From NCBI RefSeq assembly GCF_006345805.1, contig NC_042999.1, positions 145,762,001 through 145,826,000 of the forward strand: 64,000 bases of DNA, read 5' to 3'. Each line of letters starts with the position of its first letter. The first letter of the stretch is position 1. Below are positions 6,614-50,952 of this stretch, piece after piece. The DNA is from Octopus sinensis (taxonomy: Eukaryota). Both the position numbers and the translations under genes were made by a program. A model generated the notes under the pieces. It was given only the letters and a program-made list of their open reading frames with translations. It was not told the DNA's origin and searched no databases.

Positions 6614-6712
6614 TGACAATTATTCGGTGGCCACGACAAAACTCCGAGTTTCGGATGTCGGGCGGAAACCCACGCCAGCATCTCTTCAGTTATGGCTACC
6701 GAATAATTGTCA
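6614..6712 (-). ncRNA. Putative type I hammerhead ribozyme with long stem I
   Basis: Minus strand: UGACAAUUAUUCGGUAGCCAUAA-CUGAAGA-GAUGcuGGCG..CGCCcgaCAUCC-GAAA-CUC g GAG-UU/UUGUcgUGGCCACCGAAUAAUUGUCA. Intact core, GUU triplet, 15-bp closing helix; one extra C in stem II. Confidence 0.7.
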
Positions 6713-6726
6713 CTTATGCATATATA

Positions 6727-6893
6727 TACAACGGGCTTCTTTTAGTTTCAGTCTACCAAATCCACTCACAAGGCTTTGGTCGGCCCGAGGCTATAGTAGA
6801 AGACACTTGCCTAAGGTGTCACGCAGTGGGACTGAACCCAGATCCATGTGGTTGGTAAGCAAGCTACTTACCACACAGCCACTTCTGCGTGCC
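6727..6893 (-). mobile_element. SINE family A, 5' half
   Basis: Reverse complement of 10080-10245. Confidence 0.8.
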
Positions 6894-7960
6894 CTATGAA
6901 AAATAATATGGGCAGGCGTGTATGTGTATTGCATGTAGTTTTTTTTTGTTTTCAATAAAATGCTTTAAGCTAATTGGAGCTAGAGACTATTATCTAAAGA
7001 ATTGTTTTGTAGTCAAGTTTACATATCCATTAGACTTCGTTAATATGGCATAAATAAGCAAACCAGCCTAAATTTATCAGAAACATAAAACGCGAATGTA
7101 TGAATTGCAATTGAACAACATCATCATCTATCAATTTGGTATAAAATCAATATATGTCAGTTTAATATGTTGATATTGCCATAAAAAGTAAAATATATAG
7201 AGAGTCAAATAAAAATACACAATGATAATAATATAAACAGTATGTTAACTCCACCATCCTCTGCTGCTTCCCAATTCTATCGATGGCGGAAGAACTCAAA
7301 ACCACTAAGGTATAAGCAATCAGTGCGTTGGTTTTACCTGAGATTAAATAGATTTGACATGGCAAGAAGTCCATAAAGGGGCGCAGAAATTGGTGCAGGA
7401 AATGGATGTTCATTGGGGGTGTGAATGAAACCGAAAATTATTGGGGTCGTTTGCCAAGATCGGTTAGGCTTTGTTAACTACAGAATCAAGAGAAGCAATA
7501 CCAATGCCAGTAGCAAGAGAGGTATCTTTGTACAGAGGATGGGAAGAAAAACTCGGTGTATAAATCTCGCAGTGATTGCTTGACACAAACAGTTGTTACA
7601 CGGGGGACTATCATCTTGGAGAAAACTCTAGATTCTTGACCAGGATAAGTTAATGTTACTTCTATGCTCTGTGGATGAGCGTTTTCCAGCCTCAAGTACC
7701 CTTTAAACGTAGGGTAAAACTGTTTCATCTTTAAGTAATGTGATGCATCTTGAACCATAATTTGATCGGATGTTCCAGAGCACTGAGAAATAGAAGATAG
7801 AAGTTAATCTCCGGTAAAGTCAGTACGGAAATTGTCAAGTGGACAGTTCAGCAGAAATATAAGACTATCAAGAAACAGATGACGCAAAAAATTGTTTCAC
7901 ATTCTTCCGATGTTTATTTATGCTTTTTTCAACTATATATACACAAGTAAATAAATATGT

Positions 7961-7998
<38 letters not shown>

Positions 7999-8703
7999 AA
8001 AAACACACACACACAAACACACGCACATACGCACACACACACACACACACCACACACACACACACACACACACTTCTTCTACTTATCTTTTCCTTTTCTC
8101 TTAAGGCCTTGACTTTTCATTTCACTTTCCTAAGCTTAAGTCTTAGACTTTCAAATATTGTTTTAGAATTCATTATTCTTTATTATGAATTCATTATTTT
8201 TTATTATTATTACGATTTTGTCTTGTTACTTCATATAAACTATATTTAATTTACTTACCTTTATCATAGTACTGTTTGATTTATAGACATGGGTTTATAC
8301 TACTTTATTTAGCATCAGCGATCTTTTAAATTCATATTATATTGACCTAAACAACCAGCTATCTACCTTAATTTATTCAAATTAGTTTACTTTTTTTTTA
8401 ATTGTCCTCTGAGTTCACCTTAATTTTAAATATCAAATTGATTTTTTCTCAACAAACATTACAACTAAGCCTTTGTATTAATTCTAAAATGTCGCTTCTT
8501 CCTTGATATCCTCACGCGTCTTGAAAAGATTATGTTAATATAAACTTTTGGATATATCAGATATCTGAGTCGATTCACTATGGACTGATATGTATATTGT
8601 AACACTAAATGATTACACCCAAAAATGCTTTCGTAATGGAAACGTGTGTTGGCTTTTTGTATTATGTAATCTTATATTAAAGATGCGTTATTAATTTTAG
8701 TCT

Positions 8704-8757
<54 letters not shown>

Positions 8758-8904
8758 ATATATTTATATATATTGTTGTATTCGGGATGGTATTTTTTTT
8801 GTGACAAAAACAACGAACAATGACCATTCTGAAATACAACAATGTCAGTTTCAACACACGATTTCAGATAAGGTAACTTGTAACACAAATTGATAACTGT
8901 ATAA

Positions 8905-9260
8905 CAAAATTGGGACAAGAACGCAAAACATCCAGACAGACGATACGAAGAAAATAAGGATGAATCATTCGGAGTTTTCTATCCTCAGTCGAGTTCCAGA
9001 TTATCGTTGCAATTTCGGCTAGTTATACTCGAAATTGCTCCAATCTGGCCAGCCCTAAGGAAAAGATAAGCTAAGAAAATTAGATTCCTTAGAAGAAAGC
9101 AGCGTGTATACGAAAACAAGGACGGAAAAAACAGAGAAATGTTACATAAATCCAAAGGCAATTAACAGGACATAATAACAGGTGTCTTTCGACTAAGGAC
9201 GAATTAAATTAAGCTGGTGTGTGTGAAAGTAAAGCTTTACGACAAGGACATAGGACTTAA
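8905..9260 (-). mobile_element. Non-coding interspersed repeat, probably a Penelope-like 3' end
   Basis: Collinear similarity with 47035-47385 (ggacaagaacg..atttcggct..ggccagccct..tagattcc..gtgtctt.cgact); terminus also found at 42213-42255. Confidence 0.5.
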
Positions 9261-9683
9261 CGGGCACAGGGAGGAATATAGATGTTGCACGGAAGGTAGT
9301 CGAACCAAGACAGAAAGGTCAGATCTGGCTGAACACCGGACACGTGGGGAGAGAACAGAGAGAGAGGTCGAGGCAGAGGGATAGAAGAATTAAGGAGGGG
9401 CGCGAAAACAATGAAAGAGACACAGTGAAGTGAAAGAGGAGAGAAAGTGAGCCTGAAGAGAAGGCCAGGAAATGTGAGAGAGGGGAAACGAAAGAACGAA
9501 GAGTGGAATGAGCGAAGTGTGAAAGGGCTGATAGAAAGAAGGAAAGAATGAAAGACTACAAAGAATAATAGAGACGTACAAAATTTATATATACATATAT
9601 ACACATACACACACATATATATATATATGTTTATATGTATATATACATATATATATGTGTATATATACTTATATATACCCCCC

Positions 9684-9756
<73 letters not shown>

Positions 9757-9764
<8 letters not shown>

Positions 9765-10034
9765 ATAAAGGATCGTAGCTATGGACAAAATAATGCGAAA
9801 AAAATGCAAGGTAAAACACAAGACAGCAAATATGTGAATTAATGTATTCAATATTTCGGAGTTATGACCCCAATTTCAGGAAATTGCCGATTGTCAATTT
9901 CTTGAAATTGGGGTATAACCCCGAAATATTGAATACAAGGTAAGTCTACATTAATTCACATGTTTGCTGTTTTGTGTTTTACCTTGCATTTTTTCGCATT
10001 GTTTTTGCTTTACCCACGATCCTTTATACAATAT
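9757..10034. repeat. ~280-bp imperfect palindrome
   Basis: Arms tatattgtataaaggatcgt...ggaaattg and caatttct...acgatcctttatacaatata around an 8-nt centre. Confidence 0.85.
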
Positions 10035-10079
10035 ACTCTACACAATGCTTCATAGCAATTATTTCATTATATATATATA

Positions 10080-10249
10080 GGCGCAGGAGTGGCTGTGTGG
10101 TAAGTAGCTTGCTTACCAACCAAATGGTTCCGGGTTCAGTCCCACTGCGTGGCACCTTGGGCAAGTGTCTTCTACTATACCCTCGGGCCGACCAAAGCCT
10201 TGTGAGTGGATTTTGTAGGCGGAAACTGAAAGAAGCCTGTCGTATATAG

Positions 10250-10301
<52 letters not shown>

Positions 10302-10535: not shown

Positions 10536-11800
10536 CAGGCACGCAGGAAGTAAATAGACACCTTTAATTTTCAAAATCTTTTATTTAATACGCAAAGCGA
10601 ACAATTGAAATGTAATCGATAGGTAGGACTACATACTTTAGCATTTAGTTGACTTTCCCTTTACAGTTTTTAATTCAGAAACTCTTTTTGGCATTAAACT
10701 GATGAGCCTTGTGATTGTCTCTTTCTGCCCACTTTTCATGCAACAATCGAAACTATTCATCTTTAGATTTAGGTTTCTGTTGAGTTTTTCATATAGCTCT
10801 ATCTAGTATGCTCCAAAGATTTTCAATTGAGTTCATGTCAGGAGATTGGCTTGGCCAAGGAAGCCTTTTGATCCCATTTTCACTCAGCCATTGTTGATTC
10901 CTTTTCACTGTGTGGCATGGAGCCCCATCTTCCATGAATAAAAACTCATTTTTCATTATGTTATCGCGTGAATACATCAGAAGTAGTCCTTGCTTAAGTA
11001 TTTCGATGTATTTTTCAGAGTTTATGGTTCCAACACATTTGATCAGCTCAGAGTGACCATTGCTGGTGACAGCTCCCCATACCATCACAGAGATACCACC
11101 ATGTTTCACAGCTGGTTGGAGTCATTTCAAGTCAAATTCTTGACTGGGAAACCTCCAGACCCAAACAAGTCCACTGTCTGAAAATAATGCAAATCTGGAT
11201 TCATCTGAGAAAATCACTCTATCTCAAAATGAACTGGATTTTTCTGACATCTCCTTAGCCCATTTCTTTCTTTTCGTGATACTAATTGGTTGAAGGAGAG
11301 GTTTTCTTCTAGCTGCTCATCCATAATACCCAAACTTGTGCTCGTATGTAACACACTTTCTTGGACTAATTTCTGGCTGTTTTGCAATGTTTGAAGCCTT
11401 TGAACGGGGTTCGTTTTCCACAATTCTCTTCAAGCAGCGAAGCTTCATTTCCGAGGGCCCAGGTCGGCCGGGACGAGAATCTGTTGATTCTTTTCCTTGG
11501 CTTTTGAATTGCACTATAATTCTATTAACAGTAGCAAGAAGAATTTGAAGATTTTTGGCAATTTTTCGTTGACTAAGAGCAGCCTCAGATTGCCCAGCAA
11601 TACGACCTCTTTGGGAATCTGACAGTTCTGGTGAACTTTTTGTGTGTTGCATTGTTACTATTCGCAAATGTTTAATATAATGACACCTGGAATGAAAAAG
11701 AATAATTACATTATAAATTCTACACCACTGAAAGCATATTAAGATGCTTAGATCATAAATTTTGAAAATTAAATATGTCTATTTACTTCCTCCATATCTG
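10536..11800 (-). mobile_element. Tc1-family DNA transposon (DD34E), full-length but decayed
   Basis: Imperfect ~45-bp TIRs (cag....aggaagtaaatagaca..tttaattttcaaaat) flanked by TA. Minus-strand transposase fragments: HTH (ELSDSQRGRIAG..SQRKIAK..RPGRP), FSDES, FMEDGAPCH, SPDMNSIENLW; 34 residues between D and E; frameshifts and stops. Confidence 0.92.
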
Positions 11801-11853
<53 letters not shown>

Positions 11854-11980
11854 TTACAAAAATAAGGGCAAAAGAAAAATTCTAATGCCAAATATGCCGA
11901 AAAAAAGACAAAATTGTCAATAACCATTATAATTTTTGCGTCTCGAAACAAACCGATAGAAATTTCTAAAAAATCCGTCA

Positions 11981-12041
11981 TTACCGTATTGGTCCCAATT
12001 TCGGGGTTAATTCATAAGAATTTCCCCCTCTTCAGCGATAA
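11981..12041 (-). ncRNA. Type I hammerhead ribozyme, canonical core
   Basis: Minus strand: UUAUCG-CUGAAGA-GGGG(gaAAUUCuuauGAAUUaa)CCCC-GAAA-UUGG ga CCAA-UA/CGGUAA. All three stems pair, core intact, AUA triplet. Confidence 0.85.
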
Positions 12042-12132
12042 ATACGTGAGATATAAGTGAAATACTTACTCATACCCATATATATATATGATATATATAT
12101 ATATATATATATATGTATGCACACCTAAATAT

Positions 12133-13701: not shown

Positions 13702-13858
13702 GTGGATGATGACACGAATGAAACCATTCCATTGATAATAGCTGGTGGCGGCGGTGGCATTGGTGTTGGTCCCTTCCAGAAAGATCCGTCTGTCTTATAT
13801 TCGGATATCGACTTTACTATTAATGGAACAAACGGAAATATGTCCATTTCCGGTGCTG
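13702..13858 (+). CDS. ALK: ALK/LTK-like RTK, internal exon B (glycine-rich domain)
   Basis: Pyrimidine tract then ccaag|GTG; donor GCTG|gtatgt; 157 nt, phase 0-1; VDDDTNETIPLIIAGGGGGIGVGPFQKDPSVLYSDIDFTINGTNGNMSISGA resembles ALK PVPLIIAAGGGG...LNGNSGAAG. Confidence 0.88.
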
Positions 13859-15699
13859 GTATGTTTGTTTAGCTATATAAATCTTCCTTCTGTTGTTTCT
13901 TTTTGTTTTATTTCTCTGCTTTTAATCTGCGATAAAGTTAATTGCTTTCTATGTTCTAAGCAACTTTAAAATGTTATGTAAAAATTGACTTCGGTATCCA
14001 TAAGAGATTCTTCATAGGTCGTTGCCTAGCTCTCACCATTTAATGGATCTAAAACGGATGAGACAAAAATCTTCTGGTGCAAACGCTTGTCAATCACACA
14101 TGTGGTTAGGCTCTGTAGATATGTGTTATCTAATCGCAATGTATTAATGAAATTTGAACGCTAATGGATTATCATGCTAATCGACAACATCTACATTACC
14201 TTTGAATGCTCGGGCGCATCCACCATATGTTATAAAGCAATTTATCCCCTTCTCCCCCTCTCTTTAGAGATAACATGCCTCTGCATGATATAAAAATAGT
14301 AATCTTTTTGCTCATCAAAAGTGTTATCACGCTTGCTTATTACATGTTCTATCTGTGACTGTACCTGCTAATGGTGAGAACTATATAACTTCGATAAACT
14401 AGCGAAAACATAAGTTAGTGTTAAAATATTTAATGCAGAGCGTCGAAATATTAATTTGAAATACTTTTGCGGCGACGAAAACTATTAGCTTCATGATTAA
14501 TGTTGTTTTACTATTTCATCGACAGGTCATGTTTCGGTTTCATTATATCTCCTCAATGAAACATTTTATTCACCATACTTGCTGAAGTAGTAATATGACA
14601 ACTAATAATGATATATAAAATAATATACATTAATAAGTAGCAAAATTAATCGTAGTTGTTCTTTCTAAATCAATTACGGCTTAAACGACTTTCTTTGTAT
14701 TAATTCAAATGTTCTTTCATTAATTATCATCAGTACTGTAACTTTTGATTTGTTGTTTTCTTTCAAATTTTCGGTTTTCCTCCCGGCTCTAATGTAAATT
14801 AATTAAAAATCATATTTACCGTATTTAATAAGCTATTTCTCTTATGAAAATACACTACATTAAAGGCTTAATTATAGGTGCGCAGTTTGAAAGATATTTA
14901 AGAAAAAATCTACTTTTAATTTATTTTCTTGTTAAAACAGTAAATAGATAACATTTAATCTGATGCATTTAACCTAATGTCTATTTTAGATCCCACTAAT
15001 TAAACGTAAATGAATATGATTTCATCTATTATGTATCAGGCAACCTGTTAGATCCTTATTTGTGCATTCATATTAACCAAAGTTCTGCTAAACGATGATC
15101 ATTAAAATTGATATTCTAATTTTCTTCAATTAGCTGTATTCCCTTTATTCTGCATATAACTGCTCTAAACAACAGGGTTAGCAACAGTGCTGTATAATCG
15201 ATGCGTTTTATAAGATTGCATTGTGGAAAAGATTCGCACTCTATGTATCAAGAAGAATTTCTAGGTACGCGGAAGGGAAAGCCTGAGTAAGGCAAAGCGT
15301 TATCATGAATGACGGAATGATATTAAGCGTTGTTTATGACTGACAATAGTTGTGACATATGTGAAATGAAATTATTGTAATTAAGGATAAAATCAAAGAC
15401 AGAATCACGTATATCTAAAGTCATATTCCACATAACTGCTCAATCTATGCAAACATAAACCATCCATATGATATAAGATTTTCCCTAAGGAGGCACAGCT
15501 TAATTACATAGTAATGATTTTGATAAATGCAATTTTGTGAGAAAAGAGTTGATAGTATAAAGATAATTGTAGCATAATTTATGGAAAGAGTTGATGTTGC
15601 ATTTGATATTCTTTTACAGAATATCCTCCCAGCCTTCCATCTCTCCATCTCTCTCTCACTCCCTCCATCCATTTATGCATCCATCCATACATACATGAT

Positions 15700-21510: not shown

Positions 21511-21812
21511 ATAAGAGTAATGAATATAAAAATACATTACGCAGGATATATCGTAAACAATTCAAATTTATTTACGAATATATCAGTGGCCAGAACAAGC
21601 AATCGAAAAATCTTTTGTAAAAGAAGGGCGTATAATTGTGAATAAATCACAGTTATAACGGAGAGAATTATAAAAACCCTTACATGTCTAGAAATAGCAG
21701 TCAAAACCGCTATAAAGCCACTACAACCACTCATATTATATCTCCTCAACTATAAAAGATATCGGCGAGTGACGACATAAAAATTCAAAATTTAAATAAC
21801 AATAAATTGTTA

Positions 21813-21875
21813 GTCCTTTATTGCGATTTCGAAGTTAGGAACCAAAAGTGGATCCATTCTTCTCATCAGGAGAAC
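21813..21875 (-). ncRNA. Putative type I hammerhead ribozyme (minimal stem III)
   Basis: Minus strand: GUUCUC-CUGAUGA-GAAG...CUUC-GAAA-U cgca A-UA/AAGGAC. Core intact; stem I has a C.A mismatch next to the core. Confidence 0.65.
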
Positions 21876-22089
21876 ATTCCTCTGCATAGAAATTAACATA
21901 AAAACATACCTTGGGGCTTAACATGTGTCCCGATTGGCAAGAATAATGTCAACGTCTAACTACACAATTCAAATTCTGAATACAAGTGTCATGCACGTAT
22001 CGCTGTAAACAGTATGAAAAATGTGAACGCTTCTTCCAACAACATAGAGAATTTAAAATAAACAGGAGAAAATTTTATAGAGTGTTAAG

Positions 22090-23170: not shown

Positions 23171-24006
23171 GACAAATCTATATAGCAAATATCCAATGAA
23201 ATGAACCACCACTACCAGGCCGGAGGGCTCGGAGTTACTTCATAATTTTGGCAGATGAAGTTCATCAAAAATTTGCAGTAATGGAAGCAATGCTCCATCT
23301 TTGGGTGTTTATTTTACCTCTGCGTTTTCAGATGAATTCTGCTTGGTTATCCTTATGATCGATCTACGTGCCTAAATTTGAAATTTCAACTGCTTTTCTC
23401 TGTACAAAAGCCATATTGAATATTTAGCGATATTTAATTACATAAAATTAGAGGCATTTAGATCATTTAACTAATGCTCTCCCAAGTGAGCTATTTCGAT
23501 GCTTACCTTCTCCTAAATTAAAATCGTGCCGATACCTTTCATTTATTTAAGATCGATAAAATAATTCTCAGTAACATCGATCGTTAAATCATTTCGCCAT
23601 TTGAAATATTTTAATAATAGTTGCAGTTGTTGTTATTGGTGCTGTTGTTACTGTCCTTGTTGCTGTTTAAGCATTAATCTTCTAATCGAGTTGAGCCTAC
23701 CGCGTGTTATTCAATCACAATATATTCATGACTACACTATGTCCTTCCTTTTTACTATGGAACAGAGTAATTTTAGTGAGCTTTCTTCTTTACCCTTAGC
23801 ATGTCTCGCGACAGCTGATCTTGTTTGCTCTCAGCGACCTCATTATGATACCTACGTCGAACTGGAGTGGAGATACGAGTTAACGATATAATGTTCATCA
23901 TTAAAGCCATTACATTTCTGAGTATTGCCCAAAAGACAAACAAAAACTGAATCAATAACATCTCAGTAAATGTCACTCTCAGATAAATTTTAAAATTTCT
24001 CTTCAG

Positions 24007-24183
24007 GTGCTGGTGGTGGTTGGAGTGGTGAGACATACTCGCCACTTGCAGGAATGTCTTTATTAAATGGCAGCATTGGAGGAACAGGATGCCCCGGACC
24101 AAACGGACGTCACCATGCCGCCGGTGGATTTGGAGGAGGAGGCGGAGCTTGTCGTGGAGGAGGTGGTGGTGGAGGCTACAAAG
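24007..24183 (+). CDS. ALK: ALK/LTK-like RTK, internal exon C (glycine-rich domain)
   Basis: ttcag|GT ... AAAG|gtacgt; 177 nt, phase 1-1; (G)AGGGWSGETYSPLAGMSLLNGSIGGTGCPGPNGRHHAAGGFGGGGGACRGGGGGGGYK contains the ALK signature GGFGGGGGxCxxGGGGGGYxG. Confidence 0.93.
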
Positions 24184-26438
24184 GTACGTTCCTGTTTGTT
24201 GTCAACTTAAGCGTGACTAACTGAATGTTTGTATTGCTTTTTTATGTAACTGTTTTAGAGGAAAAGATGTTTCGGTAAATCGAAACCAAAACGCAGTTTC
24301 ATTCCCATCTGAAAAACAAATTCATTTCAATCCTGTTCCTAATAACTTTAGGACGTTGGATAGTAGGCTTAATCTGTCTCTTAGTTTAACTCTCCCACTT
24401 AGATCTGACAGTCTCTATTGTAATAGACTCTGTTGCAAGCAATCCTAACAGGTGTCCATTTTAAGGACAACTCTTGATTTCATCCCCCAAATCTTGGAAA
24501 GCCAGGTAAATGTTATGGATACTATTCTTTCTCCTATGATAAAATCATTAAAACAAATTGGGAACGTACGAATGCCTTAAAATATTTCATTTTACTTTCG
24601 GCCAGACTATAAGGCCTTGTGTGTATAGGTATTAGGAACAAATATTCGTAATATTTAGGTACAAACCACTGAATTCATATAAGCTATAGGTTTCATCTCT
24701 AAGTTTGTGAATGTAATTTAATTAATTACATATATGTATGTAGCCATTTTAATCAACTGTACATTTCCCCTATTAATTTGTCTCTCTGTACCACTGTGAT
24801 TACTCAATATTTAGGTCGTCTGACATTTTTCGGTGTTATTTCTCTGTTCAAACTCCAGCGCAGAGTGGTTGTCTTCTTCATTGCTGTAGTCTCGGTCGCA
24901 ATCGCATTTCAGTTATTTTATTTGTATTGGTCGATATAAAAATGGTGAAGTAAAATTTCTGTTGCTTGAAATTGCATATAACCTAAAATAAAATGGTTCT
25001 CTCTCATAACCAAAGAAACAATCTACTAGAACATCCAAAGAGTTCGTTTCATTCATAAACTTTTTCAATAATTTCTACAAAAACTCAAACCATGTACGCA
25101 GGTTATTCAAATCATTCGCACAGATATTTCCCTTCTCCCATGAAATATACTCATAACTCCCAAATCCCCGTTTCCTTTACTGATATTTATGTTGGAGCTA
25201 TGAAGACAAAACTTCTGCATAGAACACCAGAAGGAAGTAACTAAATCGAAAGTGGCTATATATATTGAATATCTGGTAACTAACTGATATAAGTAGTTGT
25301 CCAACTACTTGCAAATTCACTTGCCTCAAACATCACAGTCTCACATTTAAGCTGTTTACCAATAACATCCCTTCTAGCTTTATAGAATCCGTCCACCGGT
25401 CATTTGGCATGACAGTTTGTTAGTAGCGCTCCTAATTAGTCAATTATAACGATTTATTTTTGATTTGTCACCACATACACTCGCTAGGCTCTCAATTCCT
25501 AAGTTATTTTGATGCCACTTGCGTATATTTCCCCAGTAAGTCCAGCCCAATAAAATAACATATGATAATATCAATTCCTGAAATGCCAAACTTTATACAC
25601 TGTAGTTAACTGATTTTCTTTCTGGAGAAAAATCAACGTCCTTATATATATATATATATATATATAAATATATGTTGATTCGCTAGCTTCTGCACGCATT
25701 TTTTTTCTCGCCTTGTTTCTCTCCGTCTTTCTTTTCTGTGTATCGTTCTGTTGAAGAGCGTAGGCTCGTAACGTAAAAGACTTGTTTTATTTATATTCCT
25801 GAGCGCCATGCTAATACAATTGTTTGTTTGTATTCCACCTGCCTTCGTCTTTTGTTTATTTTCATAAAGCTTCCCGTTATATATATATATATATATTCTA
25901 TTACTAACCTATCATTCTAAATTACAACGTCTCAGAAAGGAAGCAGTCAAGACTACCTCTATTATACCATTCAATCTATCGCTTCTGTTAGAGAACAGCA
26001 TTACAGTTAAAATCAAATTTCACACACTAGTAGTCAATCGTCATTTTGAAATTCAATGCAAGTAAAATTAGCGTCCTTCCAATTGGAAAAGCCATATCTG
26101 TGCCTGGAACGAGACCCTGCTCTGTTAAGTTGTCCACCTATAGCTTTCCTGCATCCTCCATCTCTGGGATCGGAATTTCCTGTCAAAGTTTTCTGTGCCT
26201 TCGCTAGCTAACTTCGAGTTACATTTTATCAATTCTAAGGGATCTCAGATTTTGGTTGTTTCTCCCTTTTTTCGCTATATTGAAGTCATGCTGTTGTGTC
26301 TAAACACATACGCACACACACACACACACACACACATACACACACGCACAAGCACACGCACGTACACATACACACAAGCACGGGCGTACACTCACTCACA
26401 CACACGCGCGCGCTCACACACACACACATACGTACACA

Positions 26439-28765: not shown

Positions 28766-28790
28766 AGAAATTAGAATGACAAAACAATAA

Positions 28791-29836: not shown

Positions 29837-29892
29837 AAGTTGGATTGTAGATGTATCGATGTATGTTTGTATCTCTTTATCTCTCTCTCCCA

Positions 29893-30574: not shown

Positions 30575-31866
30575 CTAGCAGCATAGCCCGGCGTTGCCCG
30601 GGTATGTAAGAGCCCCTAGTAGGCAACGACTAATCCCAATCTAGTCCTTTCCCTCTAGGGAACGAAGGTGCGTGTGTAGGTTGCAATGTCTTCTCTTCAC
30701 TCCCAAATAACTATCAAACAGCTATCGATAATTCAACCCAACCAATTCCTACCAGGAAGAAATTACATTCGAGACTTTACCCCCAACACCGCCACTTCTA
30801 CTAATAGCTGCTGCAACCGCAAGTTATTTGAATACTTTTTTTGTTTACACTTTCTTTATAACTACCACCCCAAACGTTTTACCTTAAATTTTTGATGTAC
30901 CCTAAGGGTCCTCGGACGCTACTTGCAAACTCTTGGTTTATTATAAAACACTTTTGTCGTGTGCATCAAAAAACCTTTTCCTTCCGTTTGTTCAGTTTGA
31001 TCACTTTTGACTTTTTCGTTGTTGTCACTCACATTGCTGCCCGCTTTTTGGCCGTTTTTGTACATTTTTATACAAAAAAAGTATTCGAATAACTTGCGGC
31101 TGCAGCATCTATTAGCAGAAGTGGCGGTGTTGGGGGTAAAGTCTCGAATGTAATTTCTTCCTGGTAGGAATTGGTTGGATCGAATTATCGATAGCTAAAA
31201 AGGTCAAGTTGCGTCCCCTAGACAGTCTGGTTTGTGTTTAATACACAAATTTGTTTGCTATGTGTGCCACATATGATTAAATTAACCGATTTTTTCCAAT
31301 AATGTATCCTATTGGAATAAAAAGGGCTATGTAGCTCCTTGGAGCAGACATGATGCTCGTTGTGAATAAAAAAAAAAATTCCTGCCAATCTGTGAAAGAT
31401 ATTGTCGAAAATATGTCATCTTGAATTTGAACGCGATTTCCCAAAATGGCATGATTTTATCGATTGTTTCTGATGGTAAGGTATTGCATGGAAAACTAAC
31501 GTCAGAATTGAGTTTCTTAGGGTAACATTAAGCTTCACCATGAGTTTGGTGAAAATCGATTGCAAGTTGTGAAAACTACCATAGATAATGCGTTGCATAA
31601 AAAAAGCTTAGATTCTCGAGTTGCGTCCCCTAGACAGTCTGTGGTTCGTGTTTCTGATTCTCGACCCCATGTCGAATTTATCAATTTTTTTCAGAACTGG
31701 GGGAACTTTTCAAAATTTTCGCTGCGTTAGTTTTGAATTATGACATTGGGCTATGTGTGTGTCAAGTTTCATCAGAATCGGTTGAAAGCCGTGGTCAGAG
31801 TGAGGGTACGAGAAAACAGACACACAGAAACACGCACAGACAAACTGCCGTTTATATATAGAGAGA
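30575..31866 (-). mobile_element. Non-autonomous Helitron
   Basis: Minus strand starts a|TCTCTCTATATATAAACGGCAG and ends with hairpin CCCGGgcaacgCCGGG then CTAG|t. A/T insertion site, no TSD. Confidence 0.8.
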
Positions 31867-32179
31867 TATTGACTTATTCACATACGTGCCCACACACACA
31901 AATAATTCATTATTTGATATAAAATAATTAGGTAATGCACATATTCAATTCTGTATATAGACTGTTTTAAATATTATAGAATAGAAATATGGATTCAACA
32001 AAACAGAAGTAATTTAATTTCACTTTTATAACAATATTTGGAGCAAACAAATTTAATAATAGAATATAGGTTATATACAAAATATCTGAACGCAGGAGAG
32101 AGTAACCTTGTTCTTGAAGGGCAATTATTGAATGTAGCATCATACAGATTTTGTCCATTAGAGAATGAAGTGGCAAAAA

Positions 32180-34587: not shown

Positions 34588-37020
34588 TAGTTTTATTTTT
34601 ATAGCGTGCTTTCACTTCACTACTGAGCGCAGCTCTGTGTGCCTTAGGTATGTGCTGTGATTTGTTGTGATGCTCTGATGGTTATTGTATGGAAAGTGTT
34701 CTGCGTAGGATGTGTGCAGTGCCTAGTAGTGCAATTTTCTGTATGTTATATGTGTTTGTAAGTCCTGGTGTTTTTGTTATGTATTTGTCTGAATATTTTT
34801 TTATCATACCTAATGCACCTACTATGATAGGAATTGTTTCTGTTTTTAGATTCCACATTCTGGTTACCTCTATTTCCAGGTCTTTGTATTTTGAAAGTTT
34901 CTCCATTTCTTTTAGAGAAACGTTGTCATCTGCCGGTATTGATACATCAATTAGAAAGCATTTTTATCGTCATGATCTCTGACAATTATATCTGGTCTGT
35001 TGGCCTTAATTTCTCTATCTGTGTGTATCGGCATATCCCAGAGTATGGTTGCTTTCTCGTTTTCTGTGACCTTTTCTGGTGTGTGCCTATATCATTTTTT
35101 TTCTGTTGTTATTCCATAATGTTGGCATAGCTTCCAGTGTATGTATGTCCCAACTCTGTCATGTCTGTGAATATATTCCTTCTTAGCCAGGACTGGGCAG
35201 CCAGAGATAATATGATTTATTGTTTCTTGTTCATCTCCACATATTCTGCAGTTACTTGTTATATTTCTTTTCATTACATGTTTTTGGTAATTTCTGGTGG
35301 GGAGGCTTTGGTCTTGTGCTGCAATTAAAAATCCCTCTGTCTCTGCTTTGCGTCCTGAGCTTCTCAACCATTGCTAGGATTTTTCTTTGTCTATTTCCTT
35401 TGCGTTTAGTTTAGTCCAGTATTTACCATGAAGGAGCTTTTCTTGCCATCGATTTCTCATGGTTCGTTGCTGTTCTATTTTTAGTTTGGGTTTCATTTGT
35501 TTTATACTTTTGTTGTTTCTTCATCTTCTTCTTCTTCGTATTTATTAGGTGGTATGATTTCTTTTTTGTATTTGTCAGCTTCCTTAAATACTGAAAACAG
35601 TTTTTTGTTTTGCTCGTGTTTTGCCGCTATTTGTATCAGTTTTCCTTCCTTCTGAAGTAGATATTTTTGCAGTCCTATGGTGGTTATTTTATAGTAGTTT
35701 TCCAGCTGTATAAGGCCTCTACCACCTTCTATACGTTGTATATATAGTCTTTCTATGTCAGATTTTGGGTGATGCATCCTAGATCCTGTCATTATTTTTC
35801 TTGTTTTCCTATCTATTTTGGTCAGTTCATTTCGTGTCCAGTTAAGGATATTGTAGCTGTAACTTATAACTGGGACAGCTAAAGTGTTAATAGCTGTTCT
35901 TAGCATTGAGCGCTGTTTTTAGTATTGATCTAACTCGTCTATGATATTCTTTTTTTATTTTCTCTTTCATTTGTGTGTGTTGTGTCTTATCTAGTTCATG
36001 GAGTCCTAAGTATTTGTAAGTTTGGCTTTGGTCTAGCTCTTTTATTTCATTGGTTTTATCTAGGGTGATGTTGCTACTCTTAACTAGTTTTCCTCTTTTC
36101 AGGGTTACTTTGGCGCATTTTTCTAATCCAAATTTCATATCTATTTCTTTGGTAAATCCATGAACTGTCTTTAATAGCATTTCCAGCTGTTTGTCATTTG
36201 CAGCGTATGGTTTTAGGTCATCCATATATAAAAGGTGGCTGATCGTTTTGCCGTAAAATTTATATCCGCATCCAGTTCTATTTAGCAAATCAGATAGAGG
36301 TGACAGTGCCAAGCAGAAAAGGAGTGGAGAGAGCGTGTCTCCCTGGAATATTCCTCTTCTAATGGGGATGGCTTTGGTTTTCATGAGTCCCTCTTTTGTT
36401 TGGAGCTGTAGTACTGTTTGTCATTTATTCATAGAATGCCCTATGAATTTTATAATTATTGGTGCTACTTTGTTAATGGCTAGTGTTTCGAGGATCCATG
36501 TGTGGGGGATGCTATCAAACGCCTTTTTGTAGTCGATCCAGGCCATACTGAAGCCTTTCTTCTTTCTGTGGCTGTCTTCAGTTATGGCTTTATTAATCAT
36601 TAGTTGATCTTTACAGCCATATGAGCCTTTGCGGCATCATTTCTGCTCTTCTGGAAACAGGTTGTTTTCGTCCAGGTGCTTGTTCAACCTTTGCGATATC
36701 ATTGCGGTAAATGCCTTGTACATTGTAGGGAGGCAGGTTATTGGTCTGTAGTTTTCTGGTTTTGCTGTCTCATTTGATTTGGGAATTAAGATGGTTTTCC
36801 CCTTCGTGAGCCATTCAGGCATTGTCTCTGGCTCTGCTAGTGTGTTGTTAAAGTTTTCAGCCAGCTTTTAGGGCATTCCTGTTAGATATTTCAACCAGAA
36901 GTTGGGGATCTTGTCATGCCCAGGTGCCTTCCAGTTGCTTAGTCTTTGCAGTGCCTGGGTGACCTCTTCAGTTGTTATGGGGGTCCAAAGTTGCTCAGAT
37001 GCTTATTTTGTTGTTTTAAT
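34586..37020 (-). mobile_element. 5'-truncated non-LTR retrotransposon, RLE type (R4/Dong-like)
   Basis: RT motifs (PENYRPIT, IDYKKAFDS, GIFQGDTLSPLLF, LLYMDDLK, FGLEKC), zinc knuckle CRICG..ETINHIISGC, RHD, RPD endonuclease, C-terminal KLSKYKDL..AHILRRTLS; few frameshifts; 3' end runs into (AAT)n. Confidence 0.92.
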
Positions 37021-42255: not shown

Positions 42256-42749
42256 GTAGATTTTGTACACACAAGAAGACTGTCGTATACATATGTATAT
42301 TTGTTTGTTTGTATCTGTGTTTGGACCCCAACCATTCCTTGACAAACGATGTTGGCGTGTTTACGTTCCCATAACTTAGCAATTATGGGAACTGCGGGAA
42401 TCAGTGCTAGGCTTACAAAGAGTAAATCCTGTGGTCAATTTGTTCGACTTAAGGCAGTGGTCCAGCATGGCCGCAGTCACACGACGGAAACAAGTAAAAC
42501 AATTGTAAACTATTCCATTTTAATCCCGAGCAATATATATGTAAATATGTAAATATATGAATGTATATATGCATATATATATTATTTATATTATATTATA
42601 TTATATATATATATATGTAAATATATGAATGTATATATGCATATATATATATATATTATTTATATTATATTATATCATATTATATATATATATATATATA
42701 TATGAAAAAACAAGTCAAGAGAGAAAATGCTAAAATAATTTTATAAAGA

Positions 42750-42798
42750 ACATTTCAGTACCGGTTTCAGTCATTTTGAGACCTTTTCAACTGTAACG
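42750..42798 (-). ncRNA. Putative minimal type I hammerhead, U3-A8 core variant
   Basis: Minus strand: CGUUaCAG-UUGAAAA-GGUC ucaaaau GACU-GAAAC cg GUA/CUGaAAUG; palindromic stem III ACCGGU. Confidence 0.55.
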
Positions 42799-43072
42799 AT
42801 TAAATAATTAAATTTAGAAAAATTAAAAGAAAAGTTTTTTTAAAAGAATATTTGTATAGTGTTCAAATATAAGTGGCATTTTCCTTGTTTCTGCCTTTCT
42901 CTGTCTCTCTTGTTTGCACTTGTGGGTTCGAAGAGGTCGTTGTGAATTCTTGGTAGGGAAGAAGAAGAAGGAGAAGAAGGATGAGGAGAAGGGGGTGGAA
43001 TTTGGGAGTGCCTTGATTGTTGTATTTTGAGTGGTCAGTGGCGGCTAGCAATTGCTGTTCAATTCATGAGAA

Positions 43073-43459
43073 TCTCTCTCTATATAAACGGCAGTTTGTC
43101 TGTGCGTGTTTCTGTGTGTCTGTTTTCTCGTACCCTCACCCTGACCACGGCTTTCAACCGATTCTGATGAAACTTGACACACACATAGCCCAATGTCATA
43201 ATTCAAAACTAACGCAGCGAAAATTTTGAAAAGTTCCCCCAGTTCTGAAAAAAATCGATAAATTCGACATGGGGTCGAGAATAAAAAAAAACAAACCACA
43301 GACTGTCTAGGGGACGCAACTCAACCTTTTTTTACTCTCAAAAAAAATTTACCATCATTTTTTTTTCCATTTTTTTGCTATTTTTTGGCTATAACTCTCT
43401 AAAAATGCTTTATAGTTATTTCCCTTACAAACCTGAGCAACGCCGGGCGATACTGCTAG
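43073..43459 (+). mobile_element. Short non-autonomous Helitron, same family as 30575-31866
   Basis: a|TC start, first ~250 bp closely match the reverse complement of 31620-31866; 3' hairpin and CTAG|t. Confidence 0.8.
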
Positions 43460-44805: not shown

Positions 44806-46344
44806 TGCGTAAGTAGTGTTCAACAACAGTTCTGTCTTTGTAGTGGATCAGCATGCGTACTTCTAGTATAAAAAGTCAATACATCATGTCAAAGGCATAG
44901 CAACGCATTGACCGGTGGATTGGATATGAGATATTGAAGCTGCCCGTTATTTTAGTTCCCTTCTCTGTATATTCGTGTATCACAAGGACTTCACTAGCAA
45001 CTAAACTTATGAGTTTGGGATGTTGATTGAATGCTTTTGTTGTGGTTATTGTGTAGCCTCGATTATTTTTTGATTGAGCAAATTTACGATGAAAGGTATT
45101 CACCTCTTTAAAAATCCGTCCTATTTATATTTTATATTTCTGACATCGTATTGACTTGAGCTGTTCACACAAACCGAGACTTGAGCAATTCACACAACGG
45201 AGCTATAATGTTGGACTAAATTCCAGTATGTCTTACTCTTATTCGTTACACAGAGGACAAAGATTAAGTAGCCGAAAGCAAATGACGCAGCGAGTTATAA
45301 AAAATTCGACAACGAGGTAGCAAGAATGACCACCAAATTCAAAGGCGAAGACGAACAAAAGCTCAACTTGCTGGGGCTGCCTGCTGGAGCCTAGCAGCCG
45401 GTATTTAAAGGGAAAATTAACAAGACAGTCAGTCGCCCGCTGACACTCGATAACGCTACATCGAAGAGGCCAAGGAACAGAAGAAAGAAGGCATGCATCC
45501 AACACCAGAGCTGAAGACACCTCCGAAAGAGGAGGGGGCACTTCAAAACGGTAGGGCTAGGGGCCGAAACCGGACGTGGTTCCTCCTGATGATGTCTTGA
45601 GCTAACTGGATCCTATTGAGAAGCTGTTGTGGTAGCAGACCACGAAACACGGTTCAAATTCCTCAACGCACTTGTTTCAAATTCACTGGCAAATGCGTTG
45701 TCTGCATTATTTTTCCGGATTTATTCAATTATATTGATTCATTCGACGGTATGCTTCCCCGGTAGGTATAAAGTGGTCTTGTGCTAAGGTTTAAATCAAT
45801 ATCGTCCACGTTGGAAACAAACAACATGCGAAATGTCTTCTTTACTGAGGTATTAAGGAAGGTAAAAAATCAAGATTATACATAACATTATAATTTTTTG
45901 ACTAATTAGCTTCCTTTAGGAATAAAAATGTCCATCCATCCACCCATCCATCCAAATTTTTAGTAGGTGTAAACACACGGACAGGTTTCTTTTATCGAAT
46001 TGGTAGACACAACCCGCTCCGGATTGAGTTGCTGTCTCGAAGACTTTGGCATATTTCTGATATTTTGTTCTATGCCAGTTCTATTTAACGAACCTTCTGC
46101 AATCATGGCGCACGAGGATCTTAGTTTTCTTGATTTCGTTTCTTTTTTCTCGTTCCATTTTTTTCACCAACTGTCTTTCCGTTTTTTCCACGTATTTTTC
46201 TTATTTTCTCACCGGCCAGCGACCTTAGAACCTAAAATATATAAAAAATAGAATTGCTTGGAGATGCAAAAATGTTCGTTTCCATGTTTTTGTTTTTATG
46301 TTTTCGTTTCTCATTGTGTTCAACATTTTGTTGATGTCCTGTAC

Positions 46345-47428: not shown

Positions 47429-47466
47429 CTGTTACTCTGAGTTTCATGTTCCCGTTCGTCGGACAG
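47429..47466 (-). ncRNA. Putative minimal type I hammerhead (U4C core change)
   Basis: Minus strand: CUGU-CCGACGA-ACG ggaa CAU-GAAA-CUC a GAG-UA/ACAG; one mismatch in stem II. Confidence 0.5.
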
Positions 47467-47598
47467 TTTTTGCTAGAATAGAACCGATATGTTAATTCTA
47501 TCCAGACTAGTATGAACGCTACACCTTTAAAAATGGACTTGTTTGATTGGTCCTTTACAAATAACGGTCAATATTCGAGGGATAAACAAAAATGAGCT

Positions 47599-47643
<45 letters not shown>

Positions 47644-48545
47644 GAAATTCGAGGAAAAAACCTTACATCGAATCTTTGGTTAAAATACATATTGTCATTA
47701 ATAAAGGAAATATAATTAATACATGGATATTGAAATTAAAATGTTAAAATGCATTAAAATATTAAAATTAAAATTTTAAAATGCATTAACATATCCATAT
47801 TAAACTATACATATATAGTACTGTTTCGTAATATTTTAATGCATTTTAACATTTGAAACCAATATTCAATTGTAATAAACTTGATACAAGAACGAGAAGG
47901 ATAAACACTTAAATTATGGGTACAGGCCATTCGACTGCCTTCTACATAGTCTCTGTATATCCAAATTCACTTAGGCACAGGTAAACTGTTTTCAAATCCC
48001 ATACCTTTCTGCAAAAGTAACTGGGTGGATTTCCTGTTTCTAATTAAAAGTATGGCTTTATCATCACACAGGCCTGTTGAAGAATGTCAATGAAAACGTC
48101 CTTCATACTCACGTTAAGTGCCTGAGTAAAACAGCCGTTTCATCACTGTTGATCGGGTTCAATACTTAACCTGAGACGATCGCCTGGCATCATCCCTTTA
48201 AACAAAAATACAGGATTTTTCTCTAATAGGCAAAGTTTTAGACACGATTGAAAAGACTGAAGTCAGGTATTGTCTCCGCTGGCGTTATGACCTCAGGTAA
48301 AATGTTTTGTGATATTTATTGAGGGATTATTTTTTACATTCTAAGTTCAAATCACATCGATATCGCTTTTTCCTTTCTTCCGTCTGGGGTTGAATAATAC
48401 CAATCAAATACTGGGTCAATATAATTACATGACCTCAACCCCAATTTCCTTAGCATTGCATATTTGTAGGAAATTATTATGAAAAACTATTTGCATTGGT
48501 TTCGTCAACAAATAGTGTTCATTTGTGACATTTTTTTCTCTACAG

Positions 48546-48635
48546 GCGGTAATGGTGGCAGCTCTTCAGGAAGCAACGGGCAGGATGGTTCTTCTTATAT
48601 TAACCGCGCATCTACAGTATACGTTTTTGAACCAA
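48546..48635 (+). CDS. ALK: ALK/LTK-like RTK, internal exon D (end of glycine-rich domain)
   Basis: tttctctacag|GC ... CCAA|gtaagt; 90 nt, phase 1-1; (G)GNGGSSSGSNGQDGSSYINRASTVYVFEP resembles ALK GNA...DGEDGVSFISP. Confidence 0.88.
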
Positions 48636-48946
48636 GTAAGTATCTAAGAATCTTACGTTATTCTAGTCAAATATAATCATTTACTTTTCCACTGAAGCAA
48701 TCTTAGTCATATCCAAGGTTTATATAAACTCATATTATTTACATTTTTATGTATCGAATCCGATTGCGTCGCTATGTCACACCAGAAATCTATGATCACT
48801 ATCAATTCACATTTCTTTTAATCTAAAATATCCTAACCAAGGGAGAGATGGTCGAGTACATTTCTTTCTATTATTACACTTTCAGAATCGGCTACGCTGT
48901 GTTGGATAACTGCTCACAGTTATCATGAATAAATAAGGTGTTTATA

Positions 48947-49021
<75 letters not shown>

Positions 49022-49023
<2 letters not shown>

Positions 49024-49237
49024 TTCTTTACTACCCACAAGGGGCTAAACATAGAGGGGACAAACAAGGACAGACAAAGGGATTAAGTCGATTACATCGA
49101 CCCCAGTGCGTAACTGGTACTTAATTTATCGACCCCGAAAGGATGAAAGGCAAAGTCGACCTCGGCGGAATTTGAACTCGGAACGTAACGACAGACGAAA
49201 TACTGCTACGAATTTCGCCCAGCGTGCTAACGTTTCT
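49022..49237 (-). mobile_element. SINE family B
   Basis: Reverse complement of 44369-44565. Confidence 0.8.
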
Positions 49238-49291
49238 ACACACACATATATATATACATATATTTATATCATAAAATACATTTTGTAAAGG

Positions 49292-49329
49292 TTAGTACCG
49301 GTTTTAGTCTTTTCGACTTTTATAACTAA
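49292..49329 (-). other. Degenerate hammerhead-like motif related to 42750-42798
   Basis: Minus strand: UUAG-UUAUAAA-AGUC gaaaa GACU-AAAAC cg GUA/CUAA. Stems kept, core mutated. Confidence 0.35.
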
Positions 49330-49706
49330 GAGTAAAGCAAGGAAAACAATTACATAGAAGAAAACATTTAAATTAAATGTTTTGTAAATATTTTCATAGT
49401 CTTCAAATAGGTAGGACATTTTCCTTTTTTTGTCTGTCACGCTCTCTTTTTCTTTGTGAAGGCTAGGTAGGCAGTAGCAGATCTGAAAAAATAGTGTTGA
49501 TGGCTCGCTACCCATGAACTTATTTAGAACAGTTCCTGTATTTCAAAGGACCAGCCTTGACACACACTGTGTCACGCTGAATCTTCCAGAGAACTACATT
49601 AAGGGTACACGTGTGTGTGGAGTGCTCAGCACGTTAATTTCTTGAGCAGGTTGTTCTGGTGTTCGGATCAACTGGAAACCTCGTCGTCGTAATCGACGGA
49701 TTGCCA

Positions 49707-49751
<45 letters not shown>

Positions 49752-49771
49752 TATATATGTATGTATATACT

Positions 49772-49885
49772 CAGACATGCAGGAAGTAATAGTCAGTTTT
49801 AATTTTCAAAATCTTTTATTTGATATTAATTGGTTGAAGGAGAGGTTTTCATCTAGCTGCTCGTCCATAATACCCAAGTTTATGC
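49772..49885 (-). mobile_element. Internally deleted fragment of the same Tc1 family
   Basis: First ~50 bp match the TIR at 10536-10590, then the sequence jumps to match 11258-11340. Confidence 0.75.
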
Positions 49886-50152
49886 AGATATGTACAGTTA
49901 ATCAGAGCCGGGTAGGGTTCGTTATTTGTTTTCTCTTTACCTACGTGAGTTGTTGAGTATTGCTGTCTGGGAGATATCTTATGGTAGTATTTTAACTGCT
50001 ATTTCTACATTTCGGTATGTGGTAAAGCAAATTTTGCTGAGCCCTAATTATAATTATGCTCATAATTATACAATTTTATATATATATATCAATTTGAATA
50101 TAAAATTAGAGTGAGAGAAAGAGAGAGAGGGATATATATATATATATATATA

Positions 50153-50222
<70 letters not shown>

Positions 50223-50846
50223 ATAAGTTAAGTATATCAGCTTGGGTTTGTACATATAAACAGAAAGAAAACAAAGACCTTTAAACTTCTCTGTATCATG
50301 ATCTGAAATAAAGATTTTTTCCACCCGCATGACAGAAGCTCGCTTTATCCGAAGTTTATTTCCTTCCATTACGGGCTGCATATTTTGGTGAACTACATCT
50401 ACCAGCATTATGATGGATGTCTGGACTCCCAGAAATAACTTTCTTACTTATAACACCTTACTTATTCTCCTTTCTTGTTCTTATTAAAAGTTCTTGTTAC
50501 CACTTTTAGCCCTACGCAAAAAATCCCAGATTTTATTTCATTTGCTTTGTGGGAAGGACTGTTTCAACGAAGTCGCGTCTTGTCCTTACCTTTGAAACGC
50601 GGAGTAGACGAAACAAGGACAACTGAAGGGGAATATTCTTTGTGTTTATGTCTCGTACTCTGTTTTTTCGTTGTTTGAAAAAAAAGTTCGTTTCCATGTT
50701 TTTGTTTTATGTTTTCGTTTCTCATTGTGTTCAACGTTTTTTTTTTTGTGTCCTGTACCCTTATATGCATGCATATATACATACAGATGTAGGTATGTAC
50801 ATATATGTATGTATATATGCATATGTTTATATATTATTTATGTTAT

Positions 50847-50905
<59 letters not shown>

Positions 50906-50908
<3 letters not shown>

Positions 50909-50952
50909 ATATCTGAAGACTCCACTAGAGTGGACGCAAGCGTTAATATGTG
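50906..50952 (+). other. Degenerate hammerhead-like motif (sense strand)
   Basis: UAUAUAU-CUGAAGA-cUCCAC uaga GUGGAc-GCAA-gcg-UUA/AUAUGUG; GAAA box reads GCAA and stem II closes with C.C. Confidence 0.4.

What the first reader, a model, noticed from the sequence alone, without database searches (positions are those of the whole stretch)
6614..50952. Multiple distinct hammerhead ribozymes in the introns of one RTK gene, with an apparent antisense bias
Seen: five well-formed type I hammerhead folds (6614, 11981, 21813, 42750, 47429) with different stem sequences. Each lies in a short non-coding insert bordered by (TA)n, and all are on the minus strand, antisense to the ALK-like pre-mRNA. The sense-strand look-alikes found (50906, 25751, 8610-8655, 45587-45655) have broken cores or unpaired stems. 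Known: Penelope-like elements and non-LTR retrozymes carry type I, often minimal dimer-forming, hammerheads. Inference: several ribozyme-bearing mobile RNA families target TA microsatellites, and selection removes or disables copies that would cut the host pre-mRNA. The sample is small and the scan was manual.
Basis: partly seen in the sequence, partly recalled or inferred. Interest (0 to 1): 0.85.

Follow-up and report, generated by a model that had tools for sequence, protein, structure and literature searches.

The report
Penelope-like retroelement hammerheads in octopus introns
The five hammerhead-ribozyme motifs are real and are the tail ends of five different repeated jumping-gene families sitting in introns of an ALK-like receptor gene, a known kind of element, and their all-antisense orientation is likely a small-sample effect because intact sense-strand copies turned up once more introns were examined.

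Summary
The motifs are real (4 of 5 pass a strict descriptor; 0.06 per shuffle). All are on the minus strand inside a plus-strand ALK/LTK-like gene, in a genome inferred to be an octopod's.

Each is a truncated copy of a separate dispersed repeat family whose 3' end abuts (TA)n:
- 42759: Neptune-type Penelope-like element (GIY-YIG ORF upstream in longer copies).
- 6640 and 47433: Hydra-like elements.
- 11987: piece of a 467-nt ORF-less head-to-tail unit (retrozyme-like).
- 21819: a similar tandem unit.

Only three of five are intact; 21819 and 47433 carry damaging changes from their family consensus.

The antisense bias did not replicate. In 705 kb of gene body outside the window (10 genes), canonical intact copies were 5 sense : 6 antisense, all copies 27:30, and two intact sense copies lie in this same gene. 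A mild lean remains (8:14 with variant cores and extra loci; lone copies 2:9, p=0.065, post hoc).

Lone Penelope hammerheads are reported to cut poorly, so strong selection is not expected. The scan noted a similar element in another genome (e1-7788743). Verdict: new members of a known kind; orientation selection unproven.

The parts
6531..6713 (-). 5'-truncated 3' end of a Hydra-like Penelope-like element (family F2), with an inverted 5' segment (~6690-6713) that joins at stem I
   Evidence: 1543 first-look candidates in G000; longer copies L159/L160 carry an endonuclease C-terminus upstream; fold z -6.8 comes from the inversion
6640..6689 (-). Type I hammerhead: CUGAAGA core, bulged C in helix II, palindromic helix III, GUU triplet; core intact
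11853..12078 (-). 226-nt piece of a 467-nt ORF-less head-to-tail unit (family F1, retrozyme-like), TA tracts at both ends
   Evidence: 2106 candidates, the 40 scored loci 97-99% identical; 182 exact 34-mer matches, 0 for the reversed control; dimer L158 and unit junction in 11 of 30 loci
11987..12035 (-). Best-formed hammerhead: CUGAAGA, GGGG/CCCC stem II, near-palindromic helix III, AUA triplet
21511..21996 (-). Older repeat (family F4), tandem copies about 500-570 nt apart in L062/L064, no ORF seen; (TA)11 at 3' end only
   Evidence: 221 candidates, 78-88% identity
21819..21869 (-). Hammerhead, degenerate in this copy (first stem I pair and helix III palindrome broken)
42703..43079 (-). 5'-truncated 3' end of a Neptune-type Penelope-like element (family F3); (TA)11 at 3' end
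   Evidence: 741 candidates, 98-99%; L047/L054 carry CX4CxxC linker and GIY-YIG (PF01541 over cut-off) about 800 nt upstream on the same strand
42759..42790 (-). Minimal hammerhead with U3-A8 covariant core and ACCGGU palindromic helix III; identical to family majority
   Evidence: U3-A8 variant described in PMC4209133
47397..47817 (-). 5'-truncated 3' end of a Hydra-like Penelope-like element (family F5), internal (TA)17 at 47603-47636
   Evidence: 3142 candidates; L078 has CxxC..E..CxH endonuclease end about 1.2 kb upstream
47433..47462 (-). Hammerhead with U4C core (shared by most sampled family copies) and a stem II mismatch private to this copy
25730..25805 (+). Broken sense copy of an abundant minimal-hammerhead family (F6) whose consensus core is CUGUNGA
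45564..45679 (+). Sense look-alike, stem I unpaired; one other copy in the same gene, antisense and also broken; hammerhead status doubtful
50888..50970 (+). Sense look-alike next to (TA)23, GCAA instead of GAAA; no second copy in the DNA held
13702..13860 (+). Exon of ALK/LTK-like receptor tyrosine kinase (glycine-rich domain)
   Evidence: tblastn P0001/P0002; splice sites
24006..24185 (+). Exon, glycine-rich domain
   Evidence: two probable-RNA contigs begin their match at 24006
48545..48637 (+). Exon, glycine-rich domain (approximate bounds)
51739..51891 (+). Exon, EGF-like domain (approximate bounds)
56273..56380 (+). Exon, transmembrane region (approximate bounds)
62808..62993 (+). Exon, juxtamembrane region; kinase exons follow beyond the window

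Best explanation
The five motifs are hammerheads carried in the 3' ends of five separate dispersed repeat families (three tied to Penelope-like endonuclease ORFs, two ORF-less tandem units) that were likely pasted into TA microsatellites by Penelope-like reverse transcriptase-endonuclease, are probably inert as lone intronic copies, and likely all face antisense by chance. Shown: family membership, fixed 3' ends at (TA)n, variable 5' truncation, frequent 5' inversions, upstream ORFs for three families, a 467-nt closed unit for 11987, and intact sense-strand intronic copies elsewhere. Inferred: the GIY-YIG enzyme nicks AT-rich DNA and copies the RNA from near its 3' end, stopping early or switching template; the ORF-less units borrow that machinery; in tandem precursor RNA two palindromic helix III arms pair so the ribozyme cuts as a dimer, whereas a single copy cuts little.
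For: Family searches. Most copies of four families have a TA (or CA) tract shortly 3' of the ribozyme, at family-specific distances: F3 14 of 14 within 57-101 nt, F5 10 of 11 at 39-41 nt; F4 is weaker, 6 of 11. Nine divergent inverted pairs among 100 listed F1 places. Neptune ORF. Hydra-like ends: against the description in PMC8557442. F1 unit. Helix III gives no monomer hairpin but duplexes of -7.4 to -12.3 kcal/mol for four copies, -2.3 for the damaged one. Orientation outside the window: 5:6 canonical, 27:30 all; 7:9 and 8:14 with extra loci. Literature passages: single minimal PLE hammerhead showed no detectable cleavage (PMC4209133); an Anolis PLE hammerhead needed protein (PMC11167929); introns cut by a hammerhead still spliced (PMC2995048 citing Dye 2006 and Fong 2009).
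Against: Intact copies do lean antisense in every tally: 5:10 with variant cores outside the window (p=0.30), 5:13 with the window (p=0.096), lone copies 2:9 (p=0.065), while broken copies are even. Samples are small; the 95% interval for the antisense share is 0.41-0.83. No full-length RT was recovered for any family; the Hydra assignment rests on short degenerate C-termini with no Pfam match. F4's non-autonomy rests on two loci. The 11987 ribozyme has a 5-bp helix III and might cut as a monomer; nothing was assayed.
Confidence: 0.72

Rival explanations
1. Same elements, but intact sense copies cut the host pre-mRNA often enough that selection removes or disables them, giving a real, moderate antisense excess among intact lone copies.
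For: Window 0 sense: 3 antisense intact; lone intact copies outside 2:9, p=0.065; broken copies 22:20; SINEs in the same introns lean the other way, 158 same-strand: 111 opposite; Xenopus retrozymes are depleted in introns (bioRxiv 10.64898/2026.07.22.740005, passages).
Against: Canonical intact 5:6 and 7:9. Four of the nine lone antisense copies have non-canonical cores (A6U, U4C) that may not cut. Intact sense copies sit in this gene (genome ~145,729,250 and ~145,900,560), and in a dynein intron the sense F1 copy keeps its core while its antisense partner lost it (L157). No difference in degeneracy. The lone-copy subset was chosen after the fact.
Confidence: 0.2
2. A strand bias exists but is ribozyme-independent: cryptic polyadenylation or splice signals in the AT-rich 3' ends, or strand preference at insertion.
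For: General expectation for retroelements in introns (recalled, not tested); the elements are AT-rich (F1 unit 32% GC).
Against: All family copies regardless of core are 27:30 outside the window and 31:35 overall; SINE controls show no antisense excess.
Confidence: 0.05
3. The host has domesticated the antisense ribozymes to process an antisense transcript that regulates the ALK-like gene.
For: Three intact copies on one strand in 36 kb.
Against: Each is an ordinary member of a high-copy family; two of five are decaying; family copy density in the window (14 per 100 kb) equals the rest of the gene (13 per 100 kb).
Confidence: 0.02
4. Chance folds in AT-rich, microsatellite-rich DNA.
For: Three of the five folds (21819, 42759, 47433) are no more stable than shuffles; relaxed descriptors give many chance hits.
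Against: 4 strict hits against 0.06 per shuffle; cores conserved across dispersed copies and placed at element ends.
Confidence: 0.01

Closest known systems
Minimal and type I hammerheads in pLTRs of metazoan Penelope-like elements (Cervera and De la Pena 2014, PMC4209133)
   Same: Palindromic short helix III, U3-A8 covariant core, bulged bases at helix II, many sequence families per genome, mostly single truncated copies, opposite-strand pairs 100-700 bp apart.
   Different: Octopus is not named in the parts read (supplements not seen); family-wide U4C and A6U cores here were not seen in those parts; no activity tested here.
Neptune-clade PLEs (as described in PMC8557442)
   Same: Family 42759: C-terminal GIY-YIG with two cysteines between GIY and YIG, upstream CX4CxxC linker, TA target, hammerhead near the 3' end.
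   Different: RT core not recovered, so no tree; Nematis not formally excluded.
Hydra-clade PLEs (Craig et al. 2021, PMC8557442 section 11)
   Same: Families 6640 and 47433: endonuclease end with CxxC and CxH around the conserved E/N, (TA)n insertion, canonical hammerheads.
   Different: Only degenerate C-terminal 60-110 aa seen; lack of CCHH shown only in the related ORF L085; RWK/DKT motifs and CxCX5C linker not seen.
Non-LTR retrozymes (Cervera and De la Pena 2020, PMC7229834; Li et al. 2026 preprint)
   Same: Family 11987: ORF-less, 32% GC, head-to-tail unit with one type I hammerhead per unit.
   Different: Unit is 467 nt, above the ~300 bp typical monomer; copies are mostly dispersed, 5'-truncated or inverted and end at (TA)n like PLEs rather than forming long arrays; circular RNA not shown.

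Membership tests
Type I hammerhead ribozyme | CUGANGA/GAAA/UH core (or U3-A8) joined by three helices, open at helix I | tested here: met
   Intact for 6640, 11987, 42759; family majority intact but window copy damaged for 21819 and 47433
Type I hammerhead ribozyme | Match to an Rfam hammerhead model | tested here: inconclusive
   None among the 150 of 237 matches shown at E<=10; 87 lower-scoring rows not seen
Type I hammerhead ribozyme | Self-cleavage | not testable with these tools
   Needs in vitro assay; only contigs were available
Penelope-like element (EN+) | C-terminal GIY-YIG endonuclease upstream of the hammerhead on the same strand | tested here: met
   F3: PF01541 over cut-off in L047, L054. 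F2, F5: degenerate C-termini similar to ORF L085 (blastp E 4e-8 for L160, 0.006 for L078, five-sequence database), no Pfam hit for L078 or L085
Penelope-like element (EN+) | Telomerase-like RT core in one ORF with the endonuclease | not tested
   Only sequence I read as RT thumb was within the 1.5-kb flanks; no full-length copy fetched
Penelope-like element (EN+) | 5' truncation, partial tandems and inverted 5' segments | tested here: met
Neptune clade (F3) | CX2-5CxxC linker plus two cysteines inside GIY-YIG | tested here: met
   CGRPNCGIC and LIYTLTCSGCQEQYIG in L054; motif definition
Hydra clade (F2, F5) | No CCHH; CxxC and CxH flanking E and N; (TA)n target | tested here: inconclusive
   CNLC..E..CRH in L078, degenerate in L159/L160, no internal cysteines in L085; linker and RT motifs not seen
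Non-LTR retrozyme (F1) | Short ORF-less low-GC tandem unit with a type I hammerhead in each unit | tested here: met
   467 nt, GC 0.317, longest open frame 90 aa, dimer L158 (first copy's core has U4C), junction in 11 of 30 loci
Non-LTR retrozyme (F1) | Expressed as circular RNA | not testable with these tools
   Circular fold z -2.1 against 40 shuffles is only suggestive
ALK/LTK receptor kinase (host gene) | Glycine-rich domain, EGF-like, transmembrane, tyrosine kinase in order | tested here: met
   P0001: PF12810 E 3.8e-5 (24.2 bits, just under cut-off 24.5), EGF-like, PF07714; exons collinear on +

The most novel reading that the evidence does not exclude
Intact lone hammerheads from Penelope-like elements cut nascent pre-mRNA in vivo and are purged from the sense strand of octopus introns, leaving a genome-wide strand footprint that would show which of thousands of natural ribozyme variants, including U4C and A6U cores, are active in cells.
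Probability: 0.2. Interest if true: 0.65.

Novelty: new member of a known kind. Interest (0 to 1): 0.3.

Why it matters
As it stands it adds cephalopod examples of known elements: Neptune-type and Hydra-like Penelope-like retroelements, and a young 467-nt retrozyme-like unit that inserts with PLE hallmarks, which fits the proposal that animal retrozymes are non-autonomous PLE derivatives. If a strand bias limited to intact cores were shown genome-wide, it would be population-scale evidence that these poorly cleaving ribozymes are active in vivo, an open question for PLE biology. I found no paper testing orientation (searches, term look-up), and the test is cheap on an annotated genome.

Tried and rejected
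- Rfam scan: displayed rows dominated by microsatellite/miRNA noise.
- Relaxed one-deviation descriptors: too many chance hits; replaced by family profiles.
- ORF beside L016 first looked like F1's parent, but it ends in a different hammerhead (L085:2345-2418); rejected.
- L157 was first tallied as a lone antisense F1 copy; inspection showed an inverted pair with the intact core on the sense strand, and the tallies were redone.
- Orienting family loci by nearby exons: 150 of 159 candidate ORFs scanned, only 3 host exons found (L019, L024, L079).
- Base skew and microsatellite strand as proxies for gene direction: too weak.
- Sequencing runs: no RNA holder listed. Contigs from three probable-RNA runs did not cover the 21819 hammerhead bin, which is no evidence either way.
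- Homolog search of ORF L085 gave one mis-named Octopus protein.
- About 770 kb of a planned ~960 kb of gene body could be fetched, which limits power.
- Dropped from the orientation table: self-palindromic overlaps, and seeds F17, F18, F20-F25 (singletons or doubtful hammerheads).
Full report
Observation. The five sites hold type I hammerhead folds on the minus strand. A first strict descriptor found three, all minus. A refined one passed four of five in the window, against a mean of 0.06 (max 1) in 100 shuffles of 500-nt blocks; I set its thresholds after seeing the sequence. Rfam listed no hammerhead family among the 150 of 237 rows shown. Compared with family majorities, 11987 and 42759 are essentially consensus and 6640 differs mainly in stem I. 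21819 has lost its first stem I pair and its helix III palindrome, and 47433 has a mismatch in a 3-bp stem II. Under one rule applied to all copies, three of five are intact.

Host gene. A window exon retrieved P0001 (unnamed) and P0002 (Argonauta hians). P0001 has ALK/LTK glycine-rich, EGF-like and tyrosine kinase matches. Exons map collinearly on + from G000:C3:145,655,183 to 145,907,064, so the whole window is intragenic; 6640 and 11987 lie between mapped exons 82 kb apart. The organism is inferred to be an octopod from named homologs.

Families. Each motif belongs to its own dispersed family: 2106, 1543, 741, 221 and 3142 first-look candidates, 40 scored each. A 34-mer of the 11987 family has 182 exact matches, 89 forward and 93 reverse, none for the reversed control. 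Copies share 3' ends next to (TA)n, vary in 5' truncation and often carry an inverted 5' segment. Nine divergent inverted pairs are among the 100 places listed. PMC8557442 (passages and section 11) describes these as hallmarks of Penelope-like elements (PLEs).

Parents. For 42759, copies L047 and L054 continue upstream into an ORF with a CX4CxxC linker and a GIY-YIG domain over the Pfam cut-off, which is Neptune-type. For 6640 (L159, L160) and 47433 (L078), upstream ORF ends resemble ORF L085 and show CxxC..E..CxH, degenerate in the 6640 family, as described for the Hydra clade; these had no Pfam match, so the clade is inferred. For 11987, L158 is a head-to-tail dimer of a 467-nt unit, 32% GC, longest open frame 90 aa, and 11 of 30 loci carry the unit junction: a retrozyme-like non-autonomous element. 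For 21819, two loci show tandem hammerheads 496 and 869 nt apart, the latter with what I read as a ~300-nt insertion, and no ORF; non-autonomy is inferred.

Mechanism. Helix III of each copy gives no stable hairpin alone, but pairs with a second copy at -7.4 to -12.3 kcal/mol for four copies and -2.3 for 21819. PMC4209133 (parts 1-2 of 4 read; supplements not seen) reports no detectable cleavage by a single minimal PLE hammerhead and low cleavage by dimers, and describes the U3-A8 core. PMC11167929 (passages) reports AT-rich nicking, a hammerhead needing protein, and no requirement for cleavage in insertion in vitro. PMC2995048 (passages) cites work in which hammerhead-cut introns still splice, while a faster ribozyme blocks splicing (originals not read). 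I infer that lone intronic copies are mostly inert.

Orientation test. I took the rest of this gene (187 kb) and 518 kb from four myosin and five dynein genes. Their strands were set by collinear Pfam exon matches, not annotation. Family profiles found 66 copies in 769 kb. Window: intact 0 sense: 3 antisense, broken 4:2. Outside (57 copies): canonical intact 5:6 (p=1.0), with U4C/A6U variants 5:10 (p=0.30), broken 22:20, all 27:30. Two canonical sense copies lie in this same gene. Sense and antisense copies are equally degenerate (23 vs 27 copies of eight families, p=0.73).

Extra loci. Exons near three family loci and one dynein interval added L019 and L024 (antisense F1), two inverted pairs, and L157, where the sense copy keeps its core and the antisense one does not. 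Totals become 7:9 canonical and 8:14 with variants (95% interval for antisense share 0.41-0.83). Lone copies alone are 2:9 (p=0.065), a subset chosen after the fact. Three SINE families lean sense, 158:111 (the direction of one family is assumed). Strong exclusion of sense copies is therefore refuted, and a mild bias is neither shown nor excluded. Caveats: small n, my own intactness rule, possible nested genes, and axonemal dyneins may be weakly expressed.

Literature on orientation. Two full-text searches found nothing relevant. A 2026 preprint (10.64898/2026.07.22.740005; part 1 of 5 and passages; supplements closed) reports intron depletion of Xenopus retrozymes, and its main text has no occurrence of 'orientation' or 'antisense'. 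PMC7229834 (passages) gave the retrozyme definition and does not mention octopus. PMC6238598 (passages) added nothing. An earlier scan note, e1-7788743, reached a similar reading in another genome; it was not checked and is not counted as support.

Verdict. Real motifs, new members of a known kind; the orientation claim is unproven and weaker than first read. Confidence in the identity of the elements is about 0.9, and in the joint statement including 'bias mostly chance' 0.72. Interest 0.3.

Noticed in passing
window 25730-25805 and 12 other copies in the genes fetched (family F6): An abundant minimal-hammerhead family whose consensus core is CUGUNGA (A6 to U) with conserved stems; activity unknown.
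   Followed up: partly
L160:~545-1020 (minus-oriented); myosin introns on C2 and C27 (family F14): A hammerhead-like motif with core CUGAUGC(G/A) inside a 476-nt, 95% self-inverted insertion; both intronic copies are sense.
   Followed up: partly
window 34682-36867 (-): Fragmented non-LTR retrotransposon (RVT_1 and zf-RVT matches) flanked by (TTC)n/(TTA)n tracts.
   Followed up: partly
window 10789-11778 (-): Tc1/mariner-like transposase remnant (DDE_3, HTH) ending just beside the TA tract that holds the 11987 element.
   Followed up: partly
window 28779-28990 and 29637-29848; 30720-30847 and 31069-31196; 31651-31867 and 43072-43288: Long inverted repeat pairs, 95-98% complementary; possibly MITEs or inverted retroelement ends.
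   Followed up: no
window 6715-6900, 2029-2230, 49040-49236 and many copies: Three SINE-like families lean to the sense strand in the 769 kb of genes (158:111, pooled p=0.005).
   Followed up: partly
G000 small contigs such as C2502, C7512, C8320, C8595, C8702, C9002, C12600: Myosin and dynein genes with tiny introns, unlike the chromosome-scale contigs; suggests a second, compact eukaryote co-assembled in G000.
   Followed up: no
L085:320-1741 and 2345-2418: A 474-aa open Hydra-like PLE ORF end followed by its own canonical hammerhead; nearest database protein is mis-named 'myb-like'.
   Followed up: partly
window 6690-6713: The 5' inversion of the 6640 element joins at hammerhead stem I through a short ATAA microhomology, making a ~22-bp hairpin around the ribozyme; a template switch at the RNA stem is possible.
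   Followed up: partly
window 8610-8655 (+): Look-alike with ACAC/GUGU arms and two core changes; no second copy in about 1 Mb held, status unresolved.
   Followed up: partly
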